5,037 bases of DNA, from IMG/VR virus record IMGVR_UViG_3300020041_000257, positions 1-5,037 of that record. The stretch is one strand, 5' to 3'. The notes under the pieces are model-generated. The model searched no databases and was not told the origin of the DNA. It worked only from the letters and a program-made list of their open reading frames with translations. Positions within the stretch are counted from its first letter, which is position 1. Each line of letters starts with the position of its first letter. The DNA is from a virus. Shown in pieces: positions 391 to 5,037 of this stretch. A program made the translations under genes and the position numbers.

Positions 391-1014
391 TTATTTAGAA
401 GGGGTCTTGCTGATAACCTGCTCTGTATCGTATTCTAAAGCGCTAACCTGCTTCACGGACTTAGGGATAGTATACCACCTTGCCCGTCCTGCCTTGCGCA
501 CCGTATTAACTAACTCTTGACCGCCCTCGGGACGATGCTCCATAGCAATACACGAGCGATAAGGAGTGAGACGACAGAACCAGCCAAGGCGGTTACAAAG
601 GTAAATACGGTCGCAGAGGTCACGAATTTTCTTGTCAAAGTCCATAGTCTGAGACGATACAATAATCGTCAGGTGATACTTACGCTGCATTTTGAAAAAC
701 TCAACTGCATCTCGGGGCATAGTCTTAAAATCACGGTTAGAGTGCAAAACGCCTATCTCATCAATAAGAATAAGGGAATCAGGGACAAAGGTCTGTTTCC
801 AATATTCCGTCTCTAACTCATAACCAATACCCATATTGCTATAAATAAGCCCCTTATTAGCACGAAGCCACTTATCAGCAACACGAGACATATACAGAGA
901 CTTGCCAGAGCCTTTTGAACCAACAACAGCTTCAAGCTTGTAGGGATTTTTGCAATAGTTATCGATATAAACAAAAAGCCAGCAAATGCAAAAGAAAAGA
1001 ATACCATAAAGCAT
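391..1014 (-). CDS. Zot / pI-like P-loop NTPase, filamentous-phage assembly protein; N-terminal TM helix, 207 aa
   Basis: Walker A is VVGSKGSGKS and Walker B is LILIDEIG. The N-terminal hydrophobic helix is MLYGILFFCICWLFVYI. SD AAAGGA lies 9 nt upstream of the ATG. The gene sits last in a module of small hydrophobic proteins. Confidence 0.75.
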   Translation of the reverse strand: MLYGILFFCICWLFVYIDNYCKNPYKLEAVVGSKGSGKSLYMSRVADKWLRANKGLIYSNMGIGYELETEYWKQTFVPDSLILIDEIGVLHSNRDFKTMPRDAVEFFKMQRKYHLTIIVSSQTMDFDKKIRDLCDRIYLCNRLGWFCRLTPYRSCIAMEHRPEGGQELVNTVRKAGRARWYTIPKSVKQVSALEYDTEQVISKTPSK

Positions 1015-1033: not shown

Positions 1034-1079
1034 ATGAGAAAACGTCGCCGACCATTAAAATGGTCGGCGGCGTTTTCTC
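1034..1079 (-). terminator. Long hairpin with U-tract; intrinsic terminator after the putative major coat gene, possibly also a packaging signal
   Basis: Arm 1036..1056 pairs with arm 1059..1079: 21 bp, one mismatch, 2-nt apex. The GC-rich core is CGCCGCCGACCA/TGGTCGGCGACG. On the minus strand the 3' side runs TTTTCTCATTT. Confidence 0.6.
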
Positions 1080-1086
1080 TCAGCGT

Positions 1087-1215
1087 TTAACTACGGCCGG
1101 GAATCCAGCGGCGAAGGATACGGAGAACGATGCCCGCAATAGTGAGGATCACGAAGACAAGAAGAATGGGCTGAGACTCATAGAAATCAATGAGCTGACC
1201 CATCCAAGTAATCAT
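1087..1215 (-). CDS. 42-aa Pf3-like candidate major coat protein, MITWMGQLIDFYESQPILLVFVILTIAGIVLRILRRWIPGRS
   Basis: Hand translation gives an acidic N-terminus (D10, E13), a roughly 16-residue hydrophobic core and a C-terminus with 4 Arg. This is the classical pVIII charge layout. A strong terminator follows immediately, as after Ff gene VIII. The SD is weak (GGTGAG, 12 nt upstream), so the start is uncertain; M5 is an alternative. Confidence 0.5.
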   Translation of the reverse strand: MITWMGQLIDFYESQPILLVFVILTIAGIVLRILRRWIPGRS

Positions 1216-1313
1216 CGATGTGAAGAACTCACCGACCAAGGAAAGCAGCGTTGCGAGAATAGAAGAAGCGGCCTGAAGTCATCATCCTTTCATAGAAATA
1301 TTTATGGCACCTG

Positions 1314-2205: not shown

Positions 2206-2330
2206 GGCAACCAATCCTTTACGAATTTATAAATACCAAGCGCGACGAGAAAAACGACAACGGCGATAACAAGCGCACCACCGGAACCAAGAAGACGAAA
2301 AACCTCTTTGAAAAAGTCAATAAAAGTCAT
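2199..2330 (-). CDS. 43-aa single-TM protein, alternative coat candidate, MTFIDFFKEVFRLLGSGGALVIAVVVFLVALGIYKFVKDWLPW
   Basis: Found by hand translation. Its ATG overlaps the TGA of the 386-aa ORF (ATGA) and GAAAGG lies 10 nt upstream. It has an acidic N-terminal part, the hydrophobic core GALVIAVVVFLVALGIY and a C-terminus carrying K36 and K39. Confidence 0.5.
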   Translation of the reverse strand: MTFIDFFKEVFRLLGSGGALVIAVVVFLVALGIYKFVKDWLPW

Positions 2331-3487
2331 CCGTCAACCGCCTTTCGTATCAACATACGGAGCACAACGGCACCGAAAACCATGAGAGAAACTATGAAGA
2401 GGAACCCGCTAAGATTCTGAAACAAGGCATTGAGAGCTGAAATAGAGGTCGATGCAACGTCAGTATCAACAGTTTCAGTATCGTTCCAGCCCTCAATAGT
2501 AGCCTTATCTGTTTTGACATGACCAGACGCTTCAGGGAACTGTTTGAGAAGTTCGTCGCGGATATTCTCAAAAGCATCATTATTAGAGGGGAACTCGTCA
2601 CCAACAGAAAGCCCAGGTGGCAGCTTATTAGCATCAATCCAATAAGATACAACAGCAGTAGCTTCAAGACGATACTTTCCAGGAGTAGAAGGAGTGTGCC
2701 AAGATGGATAGGAAACAAAGAGAATAAGAGAATCAGAAGAGGCGTTATAAAGGACGGACATGCTACGAAGAGAAAAATTAAGGGTCTCATTCGCACTAGA
2801 ATAATACTCATTAAACCCCATAATTATTTGGGAGAAAGATTCAATAGCCTGTGTTCCAGACTGATTAAGGTTAGAGGATATATTAGGAAAACGAATACCA
2901 TTAGCAAGGGAACGAGAAGTACTAGAACCGGAAGTCGTTTCAACCACAGACATAGTATCAACAGGATACAATATAATATCCTGAGACAAAGTCATAGCAG
3001 AGGAAGTATAGGAACGAGAAACAGAAAAACCATACTCAGGATTCACTAAAAGAAACTCAAGGGTACCGGAAAGGGTTTCGCCACTAGTATAAGAAGAGCC
3101 AGAAGTGCGACGCCATTCAACAACACGAGGGGAATCAACCTGAATATAAGAGCGAGAACCAAGAGGAACAGGAGCGCGCCACCAATCGGGGTAATTTACA
3201 GGAAGAGACCACCAATCATAATAGCTACCAGAAACAGTAGATTGAATCGAAGAAGATTCAGTAATAAAGCGAGTACGATAAAGCTCACCATTGACATATG
3301 GAGAGACATGGAAATAAGTAGACTGTGTTCCAGATTCATTTGCCAACTGTTTCTGCTCAGTAATGACCCATTTTTGAGAAGCAGCATTGTTTGAAGCAAA
3401 ACAAGGCACACATAGAGACGCACAAAGCATCAGTGCCGAGAGAAGGGCGGCGAAGCGCTTATAAAAAAACCGATGCTTAATATTCAC
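2327..3487 (-). CDS. 386-aa secreted, C-terminally membrane-anchored protein; pIII-like adsorption / minor coat candidate
   Basis: GTG start with AAAGGG 9 nt upstream. The signal peptide is MNIKHRFFYKRFAALLSALMLCASLCVPCFA|SN. The ectodomain is Ser/Thr-rich. The C-terminal TM plus basic tail is LSGFLFIVSLMVFGAVVLRMLIRKAVDG. The architecture matches pIII, but I can assert no sequence homology. Confidence 0.65.
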   Translation of the reverse strand: MNIKHRFFYKRFAALLSALMLCASLCVPCFASNNAASQKWVITEQKQLANESGTQSTYFHVSPYVNGELYRTRFITESSSIQSTVSGSYYDWWSLPVNYPDWWRAPVPLGSRSYIQVDSPRVVEWRRTSGSSYTSGETLSGTLEFLLVNPEYGFSVSRSYTSSAMTLSQDIILYPVDTMSVVETTSGSSTSRSLANGIRFPNISSNLNQSGTQAIESFSQIIMGFNEYYSSANETLNFSLRSMSVLYNASSDSLILFVSYPSWHTPSTPGKYRLEATAVVSYWIDANKLPPGLSVGDEFPSNNDAFENIRDELLKQFPEASGHVKTDKATIEGWNDTETVDTDVASTSISALNALFQNLSGFLFIVSLMVFGAVVLRMLIRKAVDG

Positions 3488-3535
3488 TTCACCACACCCT
3501 TTCTCGACATCGAATAACGGAGGTCAAGTCCGTTT

Positions 3536-3609
3536 TGGTTGCGGGGTCTGGATTCGAACCAGCAGTTCCACATTCAGAGTGTGGCGTGCTACCATTGCAC
3601 CACCCCGCC
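3536..3609 (-). tRNA. tRNA-Gln, anticodon CUG, 74 nt with encoded CCA
   Basis: Minus strand reads GGCGGGG TG GTGC AATGGTA GCAC G CCACA CTCTGAA TGTGG AACT GCTGG TTCGAAT CCAGA CCCCGCA A CCA. U8, A14, G18G19, A21, U33, the T54-loop TTCGAAT and G53-C61 are all present. The anticodon loop is C-U-CUG-A-A. G1.A72 and G49.A65 are mismatched. Confidence 0.8.
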
Positions 3610-3646
3610 ATAGGCCGCAGAAGCGGCCAGAGAGATTGAAAGAGAT

Positions 3647-3675
3647 ATGTTATTGTTAGAGTTTTTCAATGCCAA
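3647..3675 (-). promoter_or_regulatory. Possible internal promoter upstream of the tRNA and structural module
   Basis: Minus strand reads TTGGCA (3675..3670), a 17-nt spacer, then TAACAT (3652..3647). It overlaps the 3' end of the SSB gene. The match is 5/6 and 4/6 to consensus, so support is weak. Confidence 0.3.
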
Positions 3676-3898
3676 GGAGATACCCGTTGCGATCAAAATT
3701 GAGATCGTACGTAGCACCAACTTCAACCAGCGCAAAAGGCATCATAGTGGCGTTAACATTGATTCTATCAACCGAAACGCCCGCGTTATCATCGTTTGCA
3801 CGCATGTCAAACTCGGCCATAATGGTCGTAAAATCATAGTCTTTACCAGCTTTGGACTTACCAGCACGGCGGGATTTACCGACTACCAAAATCCGCAT
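3656..3898 (-). CDS. 80-aa gene-V-like ssDNA-binding protein (candidate)
   Basis: It lies immediately downstream of rep and overlaps it by 23 nt. AAGGAG lies 10 nt upstream. Its size is typical of G5P. The segment GKSRRAGKSKAGKDYDF resembles the M13 gVp DNA-binding wing TRSGVSRQGKPYS. The assignment rests on position, size and this loose motif resemblance. Confidence 0.55.
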   Translation of the reverse strand: MRILVVGKSRRAGKSKAGKDYDFTTIMAEFDMRANDDNAGVSVDRINVNATMMPFALVEVGATYDLNFDRNGYLLGIEKL

Positions 3899-5018
3899 AT
3901 GTTCGGAACTCCTTTCCTTTTAGAATATCTATTTCTTCAAACTCTCCATTCTCTGACCACGGGGAGTAAGAATCGGCAGGAAGATCTACAAATTCATCAA
4001 GAGCTTGGTCATGGAAATAAACAGAGAATCCAATATCCAGACCGAACTTTTCACGAGCAGCATCACGGCAAATCGCGAGAAGACGCTCATCGCGAAGGAT
4101 ATAGGGAATGTAGCAACCATAATGAGAAGCAGCATACTCAAGAGACTTATCGAAGCTGTACGGGGCGCAGTACTTACGCGCAGAGACGTTTGCAAAAACG
4201 ACATCGGAATAAGGGGATGCGATATCCTCGACAGGGTGCAAGTTAAGGACGGAAATATCGGTGACAAACTCAGCATTTTCGAAGTCATCCGGAAGCATAA
4301 CATCCGAGCCGAAAGACAGCCAAGAATCACGGACATATCGAGAAAGAAATTCAGAATCAGAATAATACCAGTCAAAAAGCGGAGAAGGGTCAGAATAAGC
4401 CTTTTGACCGCGTAACCAGCGACTTTTCCACGAGGATTCAATCTCATAACGAATGACGCATTCATCATCGGCAACAGGAGTTATAGAGCCGTCAGGAGAG
4501 ACGAATTCATAAGAGGGAGACTGTAAAGACTTGTTATAGACACGGAAATATCGAGGACTATTACGAGAGCCAATATATACGGTCATAGCCTCGCCAGAGC
4601 CTTGAAGAAGGAACTTTTTCCGCTGACGCTGGTTTTCCATGGAATAGGTGAAACAATTTGCGAGGTAAGAACGCCACGCAGAACGCTGCATAATCACATC
4701 AAAACAAAGGTCAATACGGCGGAAATGAGCCTGTTGTCCGGCATCGCGCATGACCTTGGCCAAACAAGGCAAAGTCTCGCGAAAATGCTCACATCCAACG
4801 CCGGAAACCTGCAAAATATGCGGATTCTCAGTAGAGCCGGATTCGGGCTTATAATACAATCCGTAAGGGGATTGAAGAGGGGAATTTATAGAGTTGCCGA
4901 ACTGACGAAAACCAAGGTCAGCACCGCCAGAAAGGCATTGCTGAATCTTTCCAAGGTTGACAGAATCGCGCAGAAACGCAAATGTTGCATAATCCAAACG
5001 AATAACGTAAGTTGACAT
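3876..5018 (-). CDS. Rolling-circle replication initiation protein, Rep_trans (PF02486-like; family of CTXphi RstA)
   Basis: The N-terminal motif is VIRLDYATFAF. RIDLCFD and MTVYIGSRNSPRYFRVYNK match the conserved R-x-D-x-x-x-D and T-x-Y-x-G-S-R...R-x-Y-x-K blocks of this family as I recall them. SD AAAGGGGAG lies 8 nt upstream of the ATG. Confidence 0.75.
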   Translation of the reverse strand: MSTYVIRLDYATFAFLRDSVNLGKIQQCLSGGADLGFRQFGNSINSPLQSPYGLYYKPESGSTENPHILQVSGVGCEHFRETLPCLAKVMRDAGQQAHFRRIDLCFDVIMQRSAWRSYLANCFTYSMENQRQRKKFLLQGSGEAMTVYIGSRNSPRYFRVYNKSLQSPSYEFVSPDGSITPVADDECVIRYEIESSWKSRWLRGQKAYSDPSPLFDWYYSDSEFLSRYVRDSWLSFGSDVMLPDDFENAEFVTDISVLNLHPVEDIASPYSDVVFANVSARKYCAPYSFDKSLEYAASHYGCYIPYILRDERLLAICRDAAREKFGLDIGFSVYFHDQALDEFVDLPADSYSPWSENGEFEEIDILKGKEFRTYADFGSR

Positions 5019-5037
5019 AGCACATACTCCCCTTTCA
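4917..5037. repeat. Terminal direct repeat copy B, identical to 1..121
   Basis: Exact 121-nt identity with the window start. Confidence 0.95.

What the first reader, a model, noticed from the sequence alone, without database searches (positions are those of the whole stretch)
3516..3628. Full-length tRNA-Gln(CUG) with a G1.A72 mismatch, bracketed by hairpins, inside a filamentous-phage genome under 5 kb
tRNA genes are common in large dsDNA phages. I know of no described inovirus-like genome of about 5 kb that spends roughly 2 percent of its length on a complete tRNA.

The gene folds canonically, with all invariant positions and an encoded CCA. However, G1 faces A72. This is odd for an elongator tRNA, and the 1:72 pair is an identity element for GlnRS and for GatCAB (U1-A72 in bacterial tRNA-Gln).

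It sits between the replication module (rep, ssb) and the structural module. It is flanked within 1-3 nt by the stem-loops GGCCGC-TTCT-GCGGCC (3613..3628) and AACGGA-N7-TCCGTT (3516..3534).

I see four possible roles:
- Codon supplementation. In the first ~170 rep codons I hand-translated, 8 of 12 Gln codons are CAG.
- An att-type target or remnant of integration into a host tRNA-Gln gene.
- Because the packaged strand of Ff-type phages is the coding strand, the hairpin-cloverleaf-hairpin block could fold in the ssDNA and act as a complementary-strand origin or packaging signal.
- An RNase P/Z processing punctuation that separates early and late mRNA.
Basis: partly seen in the sequence, partly recalled or inferred. 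Interest (0 to 1): 0.85.

Follow-up and report, generated by a model that had tools for sequence, protein, structure and literature searches.

The report
Phage tRNA matched to a non-AUG start
A 4.9-kb filamentous gut phage carries a real tRNA whose anticodon (CUG) matches the odd CAG start codon of one of its own small coat-like genes. The tRNA therefore most likely acts as a private initiator tRNA, an arrangement so far known only from engineered systems.

Summary
A 74-nt tRNA-Gln(CUG) with a G1·A72 mismatch lies at 3536-3609 on the minus strand, between two hairpins. It sits in a circular 4,916-nt inovirus of the WW-nAnB group, which is abundant in sewage and the human gut.

The tRNA is conserved across more than 100 related genomes and shows strong compensatory covariation. 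Its presence was already listed in a 2019 survey supplement but never analysed.

The small coat-like gene just upstream of the Zot gene has no canonical start codon. A strong Shine-Dalgarno (SD) sequence sits 9 nt before a CAG codon, and an in-frame stop lies two codons upstream of that CAG.

- The SD-positioned codon tracks the resident tRNA's anticodon: CAG with CUG, CAA with UUG, ACG with CGU. It is ATG in every relative that lacks the tRNA.
- tRNA base 37 is complementary to mRNA base -1 in every lineage checked.
- The acceptor end is of the initiator type (1:72 mismatch, A73).
- Two tailed-phage contigs show the same pattern: a tRNA with anticodon CCU and structural genes that start at AGG.

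Best explanation: a phage-encoded initiator tRNA for a reassigned start codon. All evidence is computational. The three G:C pairs typical of initiator anticodon stems are absent.

The parts
3536..3609 (-). tRNA gene, anticodon CUG, G1·A72 and G49·A65 mismatches, A73, encoded CCA. Proposed phage initiator tRNA.
   Evidence: ARAGORN. Rfam 53.8 bits. Covariation on 39 distinct homologues.
3574..3577 (-). Anticodon CUG (3575-3577) plus A37 (3574). Together they are complementary to the mRNA bases U-C-A-G at the start site of the 62-codon gene.
   Evidence: Sequence read directly. Cloverleaf drawing. Position 37 is complementary to mRNA base -1 in every lineage checked.
3613..3628 (-). GC-rich hairpin GGCCGC-UUCU-GCGGCC, 3 nt upstream of the tRNA 5' end. 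It probably forms the protected 3' end of the rep-ssb mRNA after RNase P cleavage (inferred).
   Evidence: Folds in the MFE structure. Most relatives keep a hairpin here with a different sequence, for example GAGAGCGG-UUCG-CCGCUCUC.
3516..3534 (-). Hairpin AACGGA-N7-UCCGUU, 1 nt after the CCA end. Its 3' arm contains CCUCC. The SD of the 386-aa gene follows.
   Evidence: Relatives keep it with compensatory changes, CGGA/UCCG becoming GUCG/CGAC.
1285..1291 (-). Shine-Dalgarno sequence GAAAGGA, 9 nt upstream of the CAG codon.
   Evidence: It is the same SD type and spacing as for the other genes. It is conserved in all 43 clade genomes and in the metagenome contigs.
1273..1275 (-). CAG: proposed start codon, cognate to the phage tRNA.
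   Evidence: The in-frame stop TGA at 1279-1281 leaves only CUU and CAG before the conserved coding sequence.
1087..1275 (-). 62-codon gene for a small coat-like membrane protein (QAASSILATLLSLVGEFFTSMITWMGQLIDFYESQPILLVFVILTIAGIVLRILRRWIPGRS), immediately upstream of the Zot gene.
   Evidence: The stretch before the first Met evolves as coding sequence. Homologues in relatives without the tRNA start with ATG at the aligned position.
391..1014 (-). Zot/pI-like assembly ATPase, the inovirus hallmark gene.
   Evidence: Pfam Zot 26.8 bits against a cut-off of 20.3. phrog_25712 and phrog_197.
3876..5018 (-). Rolling-circle replication initiator (Rep_trans type). With the 80-aa ssb-like gene (3656-3898) it forms the module upstream of the tRNA.
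   Evidence: Pfam 28.7 bits, just under the cut-off of 29.6. phrog_27843, E = 7e-74.

Best explanation
The tRNA is a phage-encoded initiator tRNA with a non-CAU anticodon. It is dedicated to starting translation of one phage gene at a non-AUG codon.

**Proposed mechanism**
1. The tRNA is transcribed within the single phage operon, between the replication and structural modules.
2. It is cut out by RNase P and by 3' trimming to the encoded CCA. The flanking hairpins are left as protective ends on the neighbouring mRNAs.
3. It is aminoacylated according to its anticodon, presumably with Gln by GlnRS.
4. Its initiator-type acceptor end (1:72 mismatch, G2:C71, C3:G70, A73) presumably lets it be formylated and used by IF2, and keeps it away from EF-Tu.
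5. It pairs in the 30S P site with the CAG that lies 9 nt after the Shine-Dalgarno sequence of the 62-codon coat-like gene (1087-1275, minus strand). A fourth base pair, A37 with U(-1), helps.

The host has no initiator that reads CAG, so this protein can be made only when the phage tRNA is present. This is a lock-and-key control of a virion or assembly component.

**Shown versus inferred**
- Shown by sequence comparison: the tRNA, its conservation and covariation, the absence of any canonical start for the gene, the SD position, the codon/anticodon covariation and the 37/-1 covariation.
- Inferred: aminoacylation, formylation, P-site use, processing, and the biological purpose.
For: 1. **No canonical start.** The frame of the gene upstream of Zot opens only 1-2 codons before a CAG that lies 9 nt after GAAAGGA. 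All 43 clade genomes have distinct nucleotide sequences for this gene, and all have CAG there. So do all 70 further metagenome contigs in which the site was captured.
2. **The stretch before the first Met is coding.**
   - In its last 13 codons, variable sites by codon position are 5, 3 and 10.
   - Indels are in frame.
   - The first ATG is Val in two genomes, and the TTG is absent in the 'SQV' variants.
   - Protein similarity to distant relatives runs right up to the SD-positioned codon.
3. **The SD-positioned codon covaries with the anticodon**.
   - CUG with CAG: the WW-nAnB clade and, separately, the divergent 5.9-kb L005/L006.
   - UUG with CAA: L046 and L051.
   - CGU with ACG: L052 and L050.
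4. **Relatives without the tRNA have ATG at that position.** L044/45, L047-49, L053, L054 and L059-62 show it in SD context. L055-58 start with Met at the aligned position, but the scan flagged no SD there. L054 and L056-62 are closed circles, so the absence of a tRNA is real.
5. **Base 37 is complementary to mRNA base -1 in every lineage checked.** The pairs are A37/U, U37/A (L052), C37/G (L050) and C37/G (L005). This explains the otherwise anomalous pyrimidine at position 37.
6. **The acceptor end is of the initiator type.**
   - 1:72 is unpaired in 37 of 39 sequences, as G·A or C·A.
   - A73 is near-invariant (at least 90% of the 39 sequences).
   - Homologous cellular tRNA-Gln have U1-A72 or A1-U72 plus G73.
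   - The same tRNA body with C1·A72 or G1·A72, A73, GGG/CCC and anticodon CAU occurs as phage tRNA-Met in IMG/VR.
   - A mismatch at the acceptor end is the formyltransferase determinant. E. coli initiator tRNAs with changed anticodons initiate at the matching codon, and the CUA mutant is charged with Gln (PMC2268962).
7. **Tailed-phage contigs show the same pattern.** L187 and L217 carry a tRNA with anticodon CCU, a 1:72 mismatch, A73 and U37. Their structural genes begin at AGG after a strong SD, with A at -1, and all but one have an in-frame stop just upstream. One of them, a minor capsid protein 2, matches Pfam at 1e-90 with model position 1 at residue 3.
8. **Gene finders miss or truncate this gene** exactly where the model predicts.
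Against: - No experimental data exist. Expression, processing, charging and formylation are not tested.
- The three consecutive G:C pairs (29:41-31:39) that E. coli initiators need for P-site binding are absent from the inovirus tRNAs. U11:A24 is elongator-like.
- The body of the window-type tRNA is slightly closer to cellular tRNA-Gln (48 of 54 positions) than to phage tRNA-Met (44 of 54). An elongator origin is therefore possible.
- L050 has a canonical TTG one codon before its ACG, and its tRNA has a U1-A72 pair, so that lineage is ambiguous.
- In L065 and L167 the matching gene could not be examined because the loci are truncated.
- An unbiased 'orphan start' scan was too noisy to serve as a statistic.
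- The host is unknown, so its initiation machinery cannot be checked.
Confidence: 0.75

Rival explanations
1. Ordinary elongator tRNA for codon supplementation. The phage boosts decoding of CAG (Gln) codons that the host reads poorly.
For: CAG makes up 70% of Gln codons in the window (28 of 40) and 62% across the clade. This is higher than the G-ending share for Lys (0.51) or Glu (0.41). Codon supplementation is the standard explanation for phage tRNAs.
Against: - Phages with anticodon UUG use CAG even more (0.73), and relatives without a tRNA use it just as much (0.67).
- Supplementation does not explain the conserved 1:72 mismatch and A73, where cellular tRNA-Gln have a pair and G73.
- It does not explain the pyrimidine at position 37 in some lineages.
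- It does not explain the switch to anticodon CGU together with an ACG at one particular SD site.
- It does not explain the missing canonical start of the gene upstream of Zot.
Confidence: 0.08
2. RNA-processing punctuation only. The tRNA serves as an RNase P / 3'-end processing site that splits the early (rep, ssb) mRNA from the late (structural) mRNA, and decoding is irrelevant.
For: - The tRNA always sits at the junction after the replication module, even where the Rep type differs: Rep_trans in the window and L065, Viral_Rep in L167.
- Hairpins of differing sequence sit within 1-5 nt on both sides in most lineages.
- The tRNA must in any case be excised from the operon transcript.
Against: - The anticodon arm is fully maintained, with compensatory changes in all 5 of its pairs.
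- The anticodon is invariant within clades.
- The anticodon and base 37 covary with a specific start site 2.3 kb away. A pure processing signal would not constrain them.
- Many related phages manage without any tRNA at this junction.
Confidence: 0.07
3. Defence evasion. The tRNA is a nuclease-resistant substitute for a host tRNA-Gln that is cleaved or modified by a host anti-phage system.
For: Phage tRNAs with altered loops have been proposed to escape tRNA-targeting defences (PMC10264068, seen). The phage tRNA differs from cellular tRNA-Gln at the acceptor end.
Against: - It gives no reason for the anticodon to track the SD-positioned codon of one gene, or for base 37 to track mRNA base -1.
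- The CGU variants carry pyrimidine-37 and an acceptor stem unlike that of tRNA-Thr (own knowledge of ThrRS identity elements), so they would be poor substitutes for host tRNA-Thr.
- No defence or anti-defence gene is present in a 4.9-kb genome.
Confidence: 0.04
4. DNA-level element. The tRNA is either the remnant or target of integration into a host tRNA-Gln gene, or a cloverleaf in the packaged single strand that serves as complementary-strand origin or packaging signal.
For: - The sense strand is presumably the packaged strand, and it folds as DNA too.
- Many inoviruses integrate at tRNA genes (PMC6813254).
- Integrated copies of this phage exist (L263, L296).
Against: - In the integrated copies the junction lies inside rep, not at the tRNA.
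- The free genome has no integrase.
- No host tRNA is close to the phage tRNA; the best matches 63 bases of the 74-nt window tRNA.
- The tRNA-specific tertiary nucleotides (U8, A14, G18, G19, the T-loop, CCA) are conserved. An origin would not need them.
- A separate structured intergenic region (about 110-390) with long hairpins is available as the origin.
- This reading gives no explanation for the codon covariation.
Confidence: 0.03

Closest known systems
Engineered orthogonal initiator tRNAs: E. coli tRNAfMet anticodon mutants that initiate at UAG or GUC, and phiX174 with TAG start codons that depends on an amber initiator tRNA
   Same: An initiator-type tRNA with a changed anticodon starts translation at the matching non-AUG codon. 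The CUA mutant is charged with Gln. Phage capsid genes become dependent on that tRNA (PMC2268962; bioRxiv 10.1101/2024.07.29.605542; PMC11744186).
   Different: Those systems are man-made, and the tRNA is supplied by the host strain. They keep the three G:C pairs of the anticodon stem. Here the pair is natural, is encoded by the phage itself, exists in at least four codon versions (CAG, CAA, ACG, AGG), lacks the three G:C pairs, and adds a 37/-1 base pair.
Bacterial initiator tRNAfMet
   Same: - Mismatch at 1:72.
- G2:C71, C3:G70 and A73.
- In the C1 variants (L016, L021 and others) the acceptor stem plus discriminator reads CGCGGGG/CCCCGCA-A-CCA. From my own memory this matches E. coli tRNAfMet.
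- Proposed use in the P site at an SD-positioned codon.
   Different: The anticodon is CUG, not CAU. There are no three consecutive G:C pairs. The 11:24 pair is U11:A24 instead of A11:U24. G1·A72 is more common than C1·A72. The amino acid is presumably Gln, not Met.
Phage stop-codon recoding with phage-encoded suppressor tRNAs (crAss-like and Lak phages; own knowledge)
   Same: A phage-encoded tRNA with a non-standard decoding role makes a subset of phage (late or structural) genes unreadable by the unmodified host translation system.
   Different: There, stop codons inside genes are read by elongator suppressor tRNAs. Here, the start codon is changed and an initiator-type tRNA is needed.
Cellular tRNA-Gln(CUG/UUG) of the 'UGCGGGG...GGUGYAAYGGUAGCAC' type
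   Same: The D arm, acceptor pairs 2-7 and the anticodon are the same. Body identity reaches 48 of 54 positions.
   Different: Cellular genes have U1-A72 or A1-U72 and G73. The phage tRNA has G or C at position 1 (unpaired with A72), has A73, and often has G49·A65.
Uncultured phage WW-nAnB / 'non-A, non-B hepatitis' sequence X53411 (Cantalupo 2011, PMC3187576; tRNA listed in Morgado & Vicente 2019, PMC6409571)
   Same: It is the same phage group. IMG/VR copies of those genomes (L018, L022, L029) are 95-96% identical in Zot and have the tRNA at the listed coordinates.
   Different: The 2011 paper does not mention a tRNA. The 2019 survey only lists the prediction. Neither notes the CAG-start gene or the initiator-like features.

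Membership tests
tRNA (Rfam RF00005) | Cloverleaf with conserved tertiary nucleotides, scoring above the family's gathering threshold. | tested here: met
   53.8 bits against 29, E = 7e-10. ARAGORN call. U8, A14, G18, G19, the TTC of the T-loop and CCA are invariant across 39 homologues.
tRNA (Rfam RF00005) | Helices supported by compensatory changes. | tested here: met
   92.2% of cells are paired against 76.9% in shuffles. 13 of 21 pairs show changes on both sides. The covariation score is 0.449 against at most 0.113 for slid controls.
Bacterial elongator tRNA-Gln | Anticodon YUG. | tested here: met
   CUG in the window and its clade, UUG in L046 and L051.
Bacterial elongator tRNA-Gln | Paired 1:72 (U1-A72 or A1-U72) and discriminator G73, as in the homologous cellular genes. 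| tested here: not met
   The window has G1·A72 and A73. 37 of 39 phage sequences are unpaired at 1:72. The cellular tRNA-Gln found with the same 5' half have U-A or A-U plus G73.
Bacterial initiator tRNA | No Watson-Crick pair at 1:72 (the formyltransferase determinant), with G2:C71, C3:G70 and A73. | tested here: met
   The role of the mismatch is stated in PMC2268962. The 2:71, 3:70 and 73 determinants are from my own knowledge.
Bacterial initiator tRNA | Three consecutive G:C pairs at 29:41, 30:40 and 31:39. | tested here: not met
   The window has A-U, C-G and A-U. Across 39 sequences, 29:41 is A-U in 30.
Bacterial initiator tRNA | Anticodon CAU and methionine identity. | tested here: not met
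   The anticodon is CUG. The amino acid attached cannot be tested here.
Bacterial initiator tRNA | Decodes the SD-positioned first codon of a gene. | tested here: inconclusive
   It is supported only by comparative evidence: anticodon/start-codon covariation and 37/-1 covariation. No biochemical test is possible with these tools.
Inovirus-like filamentous phage (Tubulavirales) | pI/Zot assembly ATPase, rolling-circle Rep, small hydrophobic coat proteins, and a small circular genome with all genes on one strand. | tested here: met
   Zot 26.8 bits against 20.3. Rep_trans 28.7 bits (just under 29.6) plus phrog_27843 at 7e-74. A 121-nt terminal repeat. 77-83% nucleotide identity to GenBank 'Inovirus sp.' records.
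Phage tRNA for codon supplementation | The phage overuses the codon read by its tRNA, relative to relatives without that tRNA. | tested here: not met
   The fraction of Gln codons that are CAG is 0.62 (CUG phages), 0.73 (UUG phages) and 0.67 (no tRNA). Host codon usage is not testable because the host is unknown.
tRNA-gene attachment site (attP) | An integrase is present, the phage carries a copy of the 3' part of a host tRNA, and the prophage junction lies at the tRNA. | tested here: not met
   There is no integrase. The tRNA is full length and diverged. The junction of the integrated copies lies inside rep.

The most novel reading that the evidence does not exclude
Natural start-codon reassignment. 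Phages of unrelated types (5-kb inoviruses and tailed dsDNA phages) encode orthogonal initiator tRNAs with anticodons CUG, UUG, CGU or CCU. They have changed the start codons of virion genes to the matching CAG, CAA, ACG or AGG, with a fourth base pair between tRNA base 37 and mRNA base -1.

In the tailed phages the affected genes include the terminase small subunit, portal, minor capsid and tape-measure genes. These proteins could then be made only in the presence of the phage's own tRNA. This would be a previously unrecognised layer of the genetic code in viruses, and a systematic blind spot of gene callers.
Probability: 0.6. Interest if true: 0.95.

Novelty: categorically new. Interest (0 to 1): 0.9.

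Why it matters
If the model is right, this is the first natural case in which a start codon other than AUG, GUG or UUG is read by its own dedicated initiator tRNA.

- A 4.9-kb genome under strong size pressure spends about 2% of its length on the tRNA and its flanking hairpins.
- **It makes the 1:72 mismatch meaningful.** The mismatch becomes an initiator feature rather than a defect.
- **It affects annotation.** Gene finders miss or truncate genes with reassigned starts. Here the 62-codon gene is not called in L052 and is truncated in L046 and L051. The GenBank records annotate only 2-4 genes.
- **It points to a general phage strategy.** Gating virion proteins through a private tRNA would parallel stop-codon recoding.
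- **It offers tools.** The pairs are ready-made, naturally evolved orthogonal initiator tRNA/start-codon pairs for synthetic biology and phage biocontainment.
- **The phage is common.** The WW-nAnB group is abundant in sewage and widespread in human and pig gut samples. Its Zot cluster has 3,081 member sequences.

Tried and rejected
- **A -1:73 base pair extending the acceptor stem, as in tRNA-His.** Rejected. L051 has C(-1) with A73, and L052 has C(-1) with C73.
- **Codon-usage test for supplementation.** It gave no signal.
- **A conserved promoter for the tRNA.**
  - The window has a weak TTGGCA-17-TAACAT match at 3675-3647.
  - Promoter-like hits are no more frequent than in shuffled sequence (8 against 7.6).
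  - The majority upstream type has no such motif.
- **Host identification.**
  - Zot homologues come only from metagenomes.
  - The scan of bacterial genomes with the 5' half of the tRNA returned cellular tRNA-Gln genes, none close to the phage tRNA.
  - The SLH protein that flanks the integrated copy L263 has no named relatives.
- **IMG/VR searches with the Zot proteins of the UUG and CGU lineages.** They found nothing new.
- **The metagenome scan.** It returned only the same clade. This raised the sample size but did not add lineages.
- **An unbiased scan for ORFs lacking an SD-positioned canonical start.** It was too noisy because alternative frames are counted, so it is not used as evidence.
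- **The tRNA-bearing elements L065 and L167.** The matching start could not be found because only 8 kb of each contig is held.
- **Family assignment of the 62-aa protein.** No significant Pfam or PHROG match. The labels 'coat-like' and 'candidate major coat protein' rest only on its layout: acidic N-terminus, one hydrophobic helix and a C-terminus with four Arg.
- **Origin of the tRNA.** Whether it derives from tRNA-Gln or from initiator tRNA-Met remains ambiguous.
Full report
**1. What is in the window**

The window is a circular genome of 4,916 nt; bases 1-121 repeat at 4917-5037. All plausible genes lie on the minus strand. In order they are:
- Rep (3876-5018; Rep_trans, phrog_27843);
- an 80-aa ssb-like protein (3656-3898);
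- the tRNA;
- a 386-aa protein with a signal peptide (2327-3487);
- several small hydrophobic proteins;
- a Zot/pI ATPase (391-1014).

The genome is 77-83% identical to pig-gut 'Inovirus sp.' records. Through IMG/VR copies it belongs to the 'WW-nAnB' / X53411 group. That group was first taken for a hepatitis agent and later recognised as an inovirus abundant in sewage (PMC3187576).

**2.

ARAGORN and Rfam both call a tRNA-Gln(CUG) at 3536-3609 on the minus strand, at 53.8 bits and E = 7e-10. G1 faces A72, position 73 is A, and CCA is encoded. There is also a G49·A65 mismatch.

The tRNA is not an assembly accident or a host flank. All six GenBank relatives have it, as do 33 of 37 IMG/VR relatives (the other four are fragments) and at least 68 of 80 human-gut contigs.

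On 39 distinct sequences the cloverleaf shows massive compensatory change. 13 of 21 pairs change on both sides, and 92% of cells are paired against 77% in shuffles.

The presence of a tRNA in WW-nAnB genomes was already listed in a survey (PMC6409571; main text, supplement). No analysis accompanied the listing.

**3. What is odd about the tRNA**

A scan of 185,579 species' genomes with the 5' half of the tRNA returns almost only cellular tRNA-Gln genes. These have U1-A72 or A1-U72 and G73.

The phage tRNAs instead have G or C at position 1, which is unpaired with A72 in 37 of 39 sequences. A73 is present in at least 90% of them.

The C1 variants read CGCGGGG...CCCCGCA-A-CCA. From my own knowledge this is the acceptor end of bacterial initiator tRNAfMet.

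In IMG/VR the same tRNA body occurs many times in tailed-phage contigs as tRNA-Met(CAU). Those copies have C1·A72 or G1·A72, A73 and GGG/CCC in the anticodon stem, so they are initiator-type.

More distant inovirus relatives carry, at the same place after the replication module, a homologous tRNA with anticodon UUG (L046, L051) or CGU (L050, L052). The CGU ones have a pyrimidine at position 37. Other relatives have no tRNA at all.

**4.

- **Codon supplementation.** Not supported. The CAG share of Gln codons is the same whatever the anticodon, and the same without a tRNA.
- **att remnant.** Not supported. There is no integrase, and in two integrated copies (L263, L296) the junction lies inside rep, not at the tRNA.
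- **ssDNA element.** Cannot be excluded, but it explains none of the tRNA-specific conservation.
- **Processing punctuation.** Plausible as a side effect. Most lineages keep a GC-rich hairpin of their own sequence just upstream of the tRNA, and many also have one just downstream.

**5. The key finding**

I scanned the coding strand for codons placed behind a Shine-Dalgarno (SD) sequence. The small gene just upstream of the Zot gene (stop at 1087) turned out to have no canonical start.
- Its frame is closed by TGA at 1279-1281.
- Only CUU and then CAG (1273-1275) follow that stop.
- The CAG lies 9 nt after GAAAGGA. This is the same SD and spacing as for the phage's ATG and GTG genes.

The encoded 62-aa protein has an acidic N-terminus, one hydrophobic helix and the C-terminus RILRRWIPGRS.

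All 43 clade genomes have CAG at this site, and each has a different nucleotide sequence for the gene. All 70 further metagenome contigs in which the site was captured have it too.

The stretch between the CAG and the first Met evolves as coding sequence. Third-position changes dominate, indels are in frame, and neither the first ATG nor the TTG is conserved.

**6. Covariation**

| Lineage | tRNA anticodon | SD-positioned codon | Base 37 / mRNA base -1 |
|---|---|---|---|
| WW-nAnB clade (includes the window) | CUG | CAG (SD + 9 nt) | A / U |
| L005, L006 (divergent, 5.9 kb) | CUG | CAG (GAAAGGGG + 8 nt) | C / G |
| L046, L051 | UUG | CAA (GAAAGGGG + 9 nt) | A / U |
| L052 | CGU | ACG (GAAAGGAG + 8 nt) | U / A |
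| L050 | CGU | ACG (GGAAAGGAG + 8 nt) | C / G |
| L044/45, L047-49, L053, L054, L059-62 | none | ATG, in SD context | not applicable |
| L055-58 | none | Met at the aligned position; the scan flagged no SD | not applicable |

Sources.

Neighbouring pairs make the point sharply:
- L050 reads ...GGAAAGGAG AATGTTTG ACG, while L053 reads ...GGAAAGGAG AATGCCCA ATG.
- L052 reads ...GAAAGGAG TTGATTTA ACG, while L047 reads ...GGAAAGGAG TAGACTTT ATG.

Several of the tRNA-less genomes are closed circles, so the absence of a tRNA is real.

The collection's gene finder did not call the gene in L052. It truncated the gene to an internal ATG in L046 and L051.

The complementarity between base 37 and mRNA base -1 holds in every lineage. 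It accounts for the otherwise anomalous pyrimidine at position 37.

**7. The same pattern in tailed phages**

Two IMG/VR contigs (L187, L217) carry a tRNA with anticodon CCU, a 1:72 mismatch, A73 and U37. Their structural genes begin at AGG behind strong SDs, with A at -1, and all but one have an in-frame stop directly upstream. The genes are:
- a minor capsid protein 2 (Pfam 1e-90, model position 1 at residue 3);
- a terminase small subunit;
- a portal-like protein;
- a tape-measure-like protein;
- a tail-like protein (this one lacks the upstream stop).

Sources.

**8. Mechanism**

The simplest reading is that the tRNA is a private initiator tRNA.

It is established for E. coli that initiator tRNAs with changed anticodons initiate at the matching codon. 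The CUA mutant is charged with Gln. The acceptor-end mismatch is the formylation determinant, and three G:C pairs promote P-site binding (PMC2268962).

An engineered phiX174 with TAG start codons depends on an amber initiator tRNA. The phage system looks like a natural version of this.

Aminoacylation, formylation, IF2 use and RNase P excision are inferred, not shown. The missing three G:C pairs are the main mechanistic doubt. The extra 37/-1 pair may compensate for them, but that is speculation.

The likely purpose is to make synthesis of a virion or assembly protein conditional on the phage's own tRNA. That too is inferred.

**9. Novelty**

Ten full-text searches found no natural system of this kind. 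They found only engineered ones.

The library does not hold most subscription journals, so a prior description cannot be fully excluded.

Noticed in passing
L187 (tRNA 4953-5023 -; AGG starts at 7220, 1780, 328 -) and L217 (tRNA 6648-6721 -; AGG starts at 5580, 201 -): Tailed-phage contigs carry a tRNA with anticodon CCU, a 1:72 mismatch, A73 and U37. Their structural genes (minor capsid protein 2, terminase small subunit, portal-like, tape-measure-like) start at AGG after a strong SD, with A at -1.
   Followed up: partly
L185 105-178 (-): A 37-kb phage contig has a tRNA with anticodon CAG (Leu), C1·A72, A73 and U37. It may be another altered initiator, reading CUG. No matching start site was found in the stored 14 kb.
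   Followed up: partly
L263 773-5807 (50.7-kb contig) and L296: These are copies of the phage joined to bacterial DNA: HSP20 and a 1,047-aa SLH-domain protein in L263, and DUF4367, DUF6551, HipA and tRNA-Met in L296. The junction lies inside rep at about codon 300. In circular relatives the two ends overlap by about 13 nt. This suggests integration through a site within rep and gives a lead to the still unknown host. The IMG/VR entry L015 is this same sequence, cut out of the contig.
   Followed up: partly
window 3546/3562 (tRNA positions 65/49): A second mismatch, G49·A65, lies at the T-stem/acceptor junction. It is present in 23 of 39 homologues, while others have G-C, U-A or C-G there. Its significance is unknown.
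   Followed up: partly
window 1036-1079: A near-perfect 21-nt inverted repeat followed by a U run lies between the stop of the CAG-start gene and the Zot start. It is terminator-like, or could be a packaging signal. A 29-nt inverted repeat at 341-400 follows the Zot gene.
   Followed up: no
window 1276-1286 (minus strand): ATGATG overlaps the 3' edge of the SD, just before the CAG, in the +1 frame (20 codons in the window). It is conserved in the WW-nAnB clade but absent in the UUG, CGU and L005 lineages, so it is probably not a start. Any regulatory role is untested.
   Followed up: partly
window 3516-3534 and relatives: The 3' arm of the hairpin after the tRNA contains CCUCC, which resembles the anti-Shine-Dalgarno sequence. 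In the MFE fold, a CU-rich stretch upstream of the tRNA pairs with the SD region of the 386-aa gene. tRNA excision might therefore unmask that SD.
   Followed up: no
L029 (= WW-nAnB, JN402401) 1578-1646: Its tRNA has a 1-nt insertion in the anticodon loop and a deletion in the D loop. ARAGORN calls it 'tRNA-???(actg)' and the 2019 survey calls it tRNA-Ser(act). These are probably sequencing errors in the 2011 assembly, although that is not verified here.
   Followed up: no
L005 (MT135307) 1650-1723 against CDS 1664-2986; L001-L006 in general: The GenBank annotation places the start of a 'hypothetical protein' inside the tRNA gene. The records annotate only 2-4 CDS and no tRNA.
   Followed up: no
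L050 4014-4026: In this CGU lineage a canonical TTG sits one codon before the ACG ACG, and the tRNA has a U1-A72 pair and U73. It may be an intermediate or decaying state of the system.
   Followed up: no
L065 5101-5174 (Lachnospiraceae MAG) and L167 7049-7122 (Clostridiales MAG, 142-kb contig): Homologous tRNAs sit right after a Rep gene in elements binned with Clostridia genomes. The one in L065 has anticodon CUG, U1·C72 and C37. The one in L167 has anticodon CGU and U37. This is consistent with Clostridia as hosts of the wider group.
   Followed up: partly
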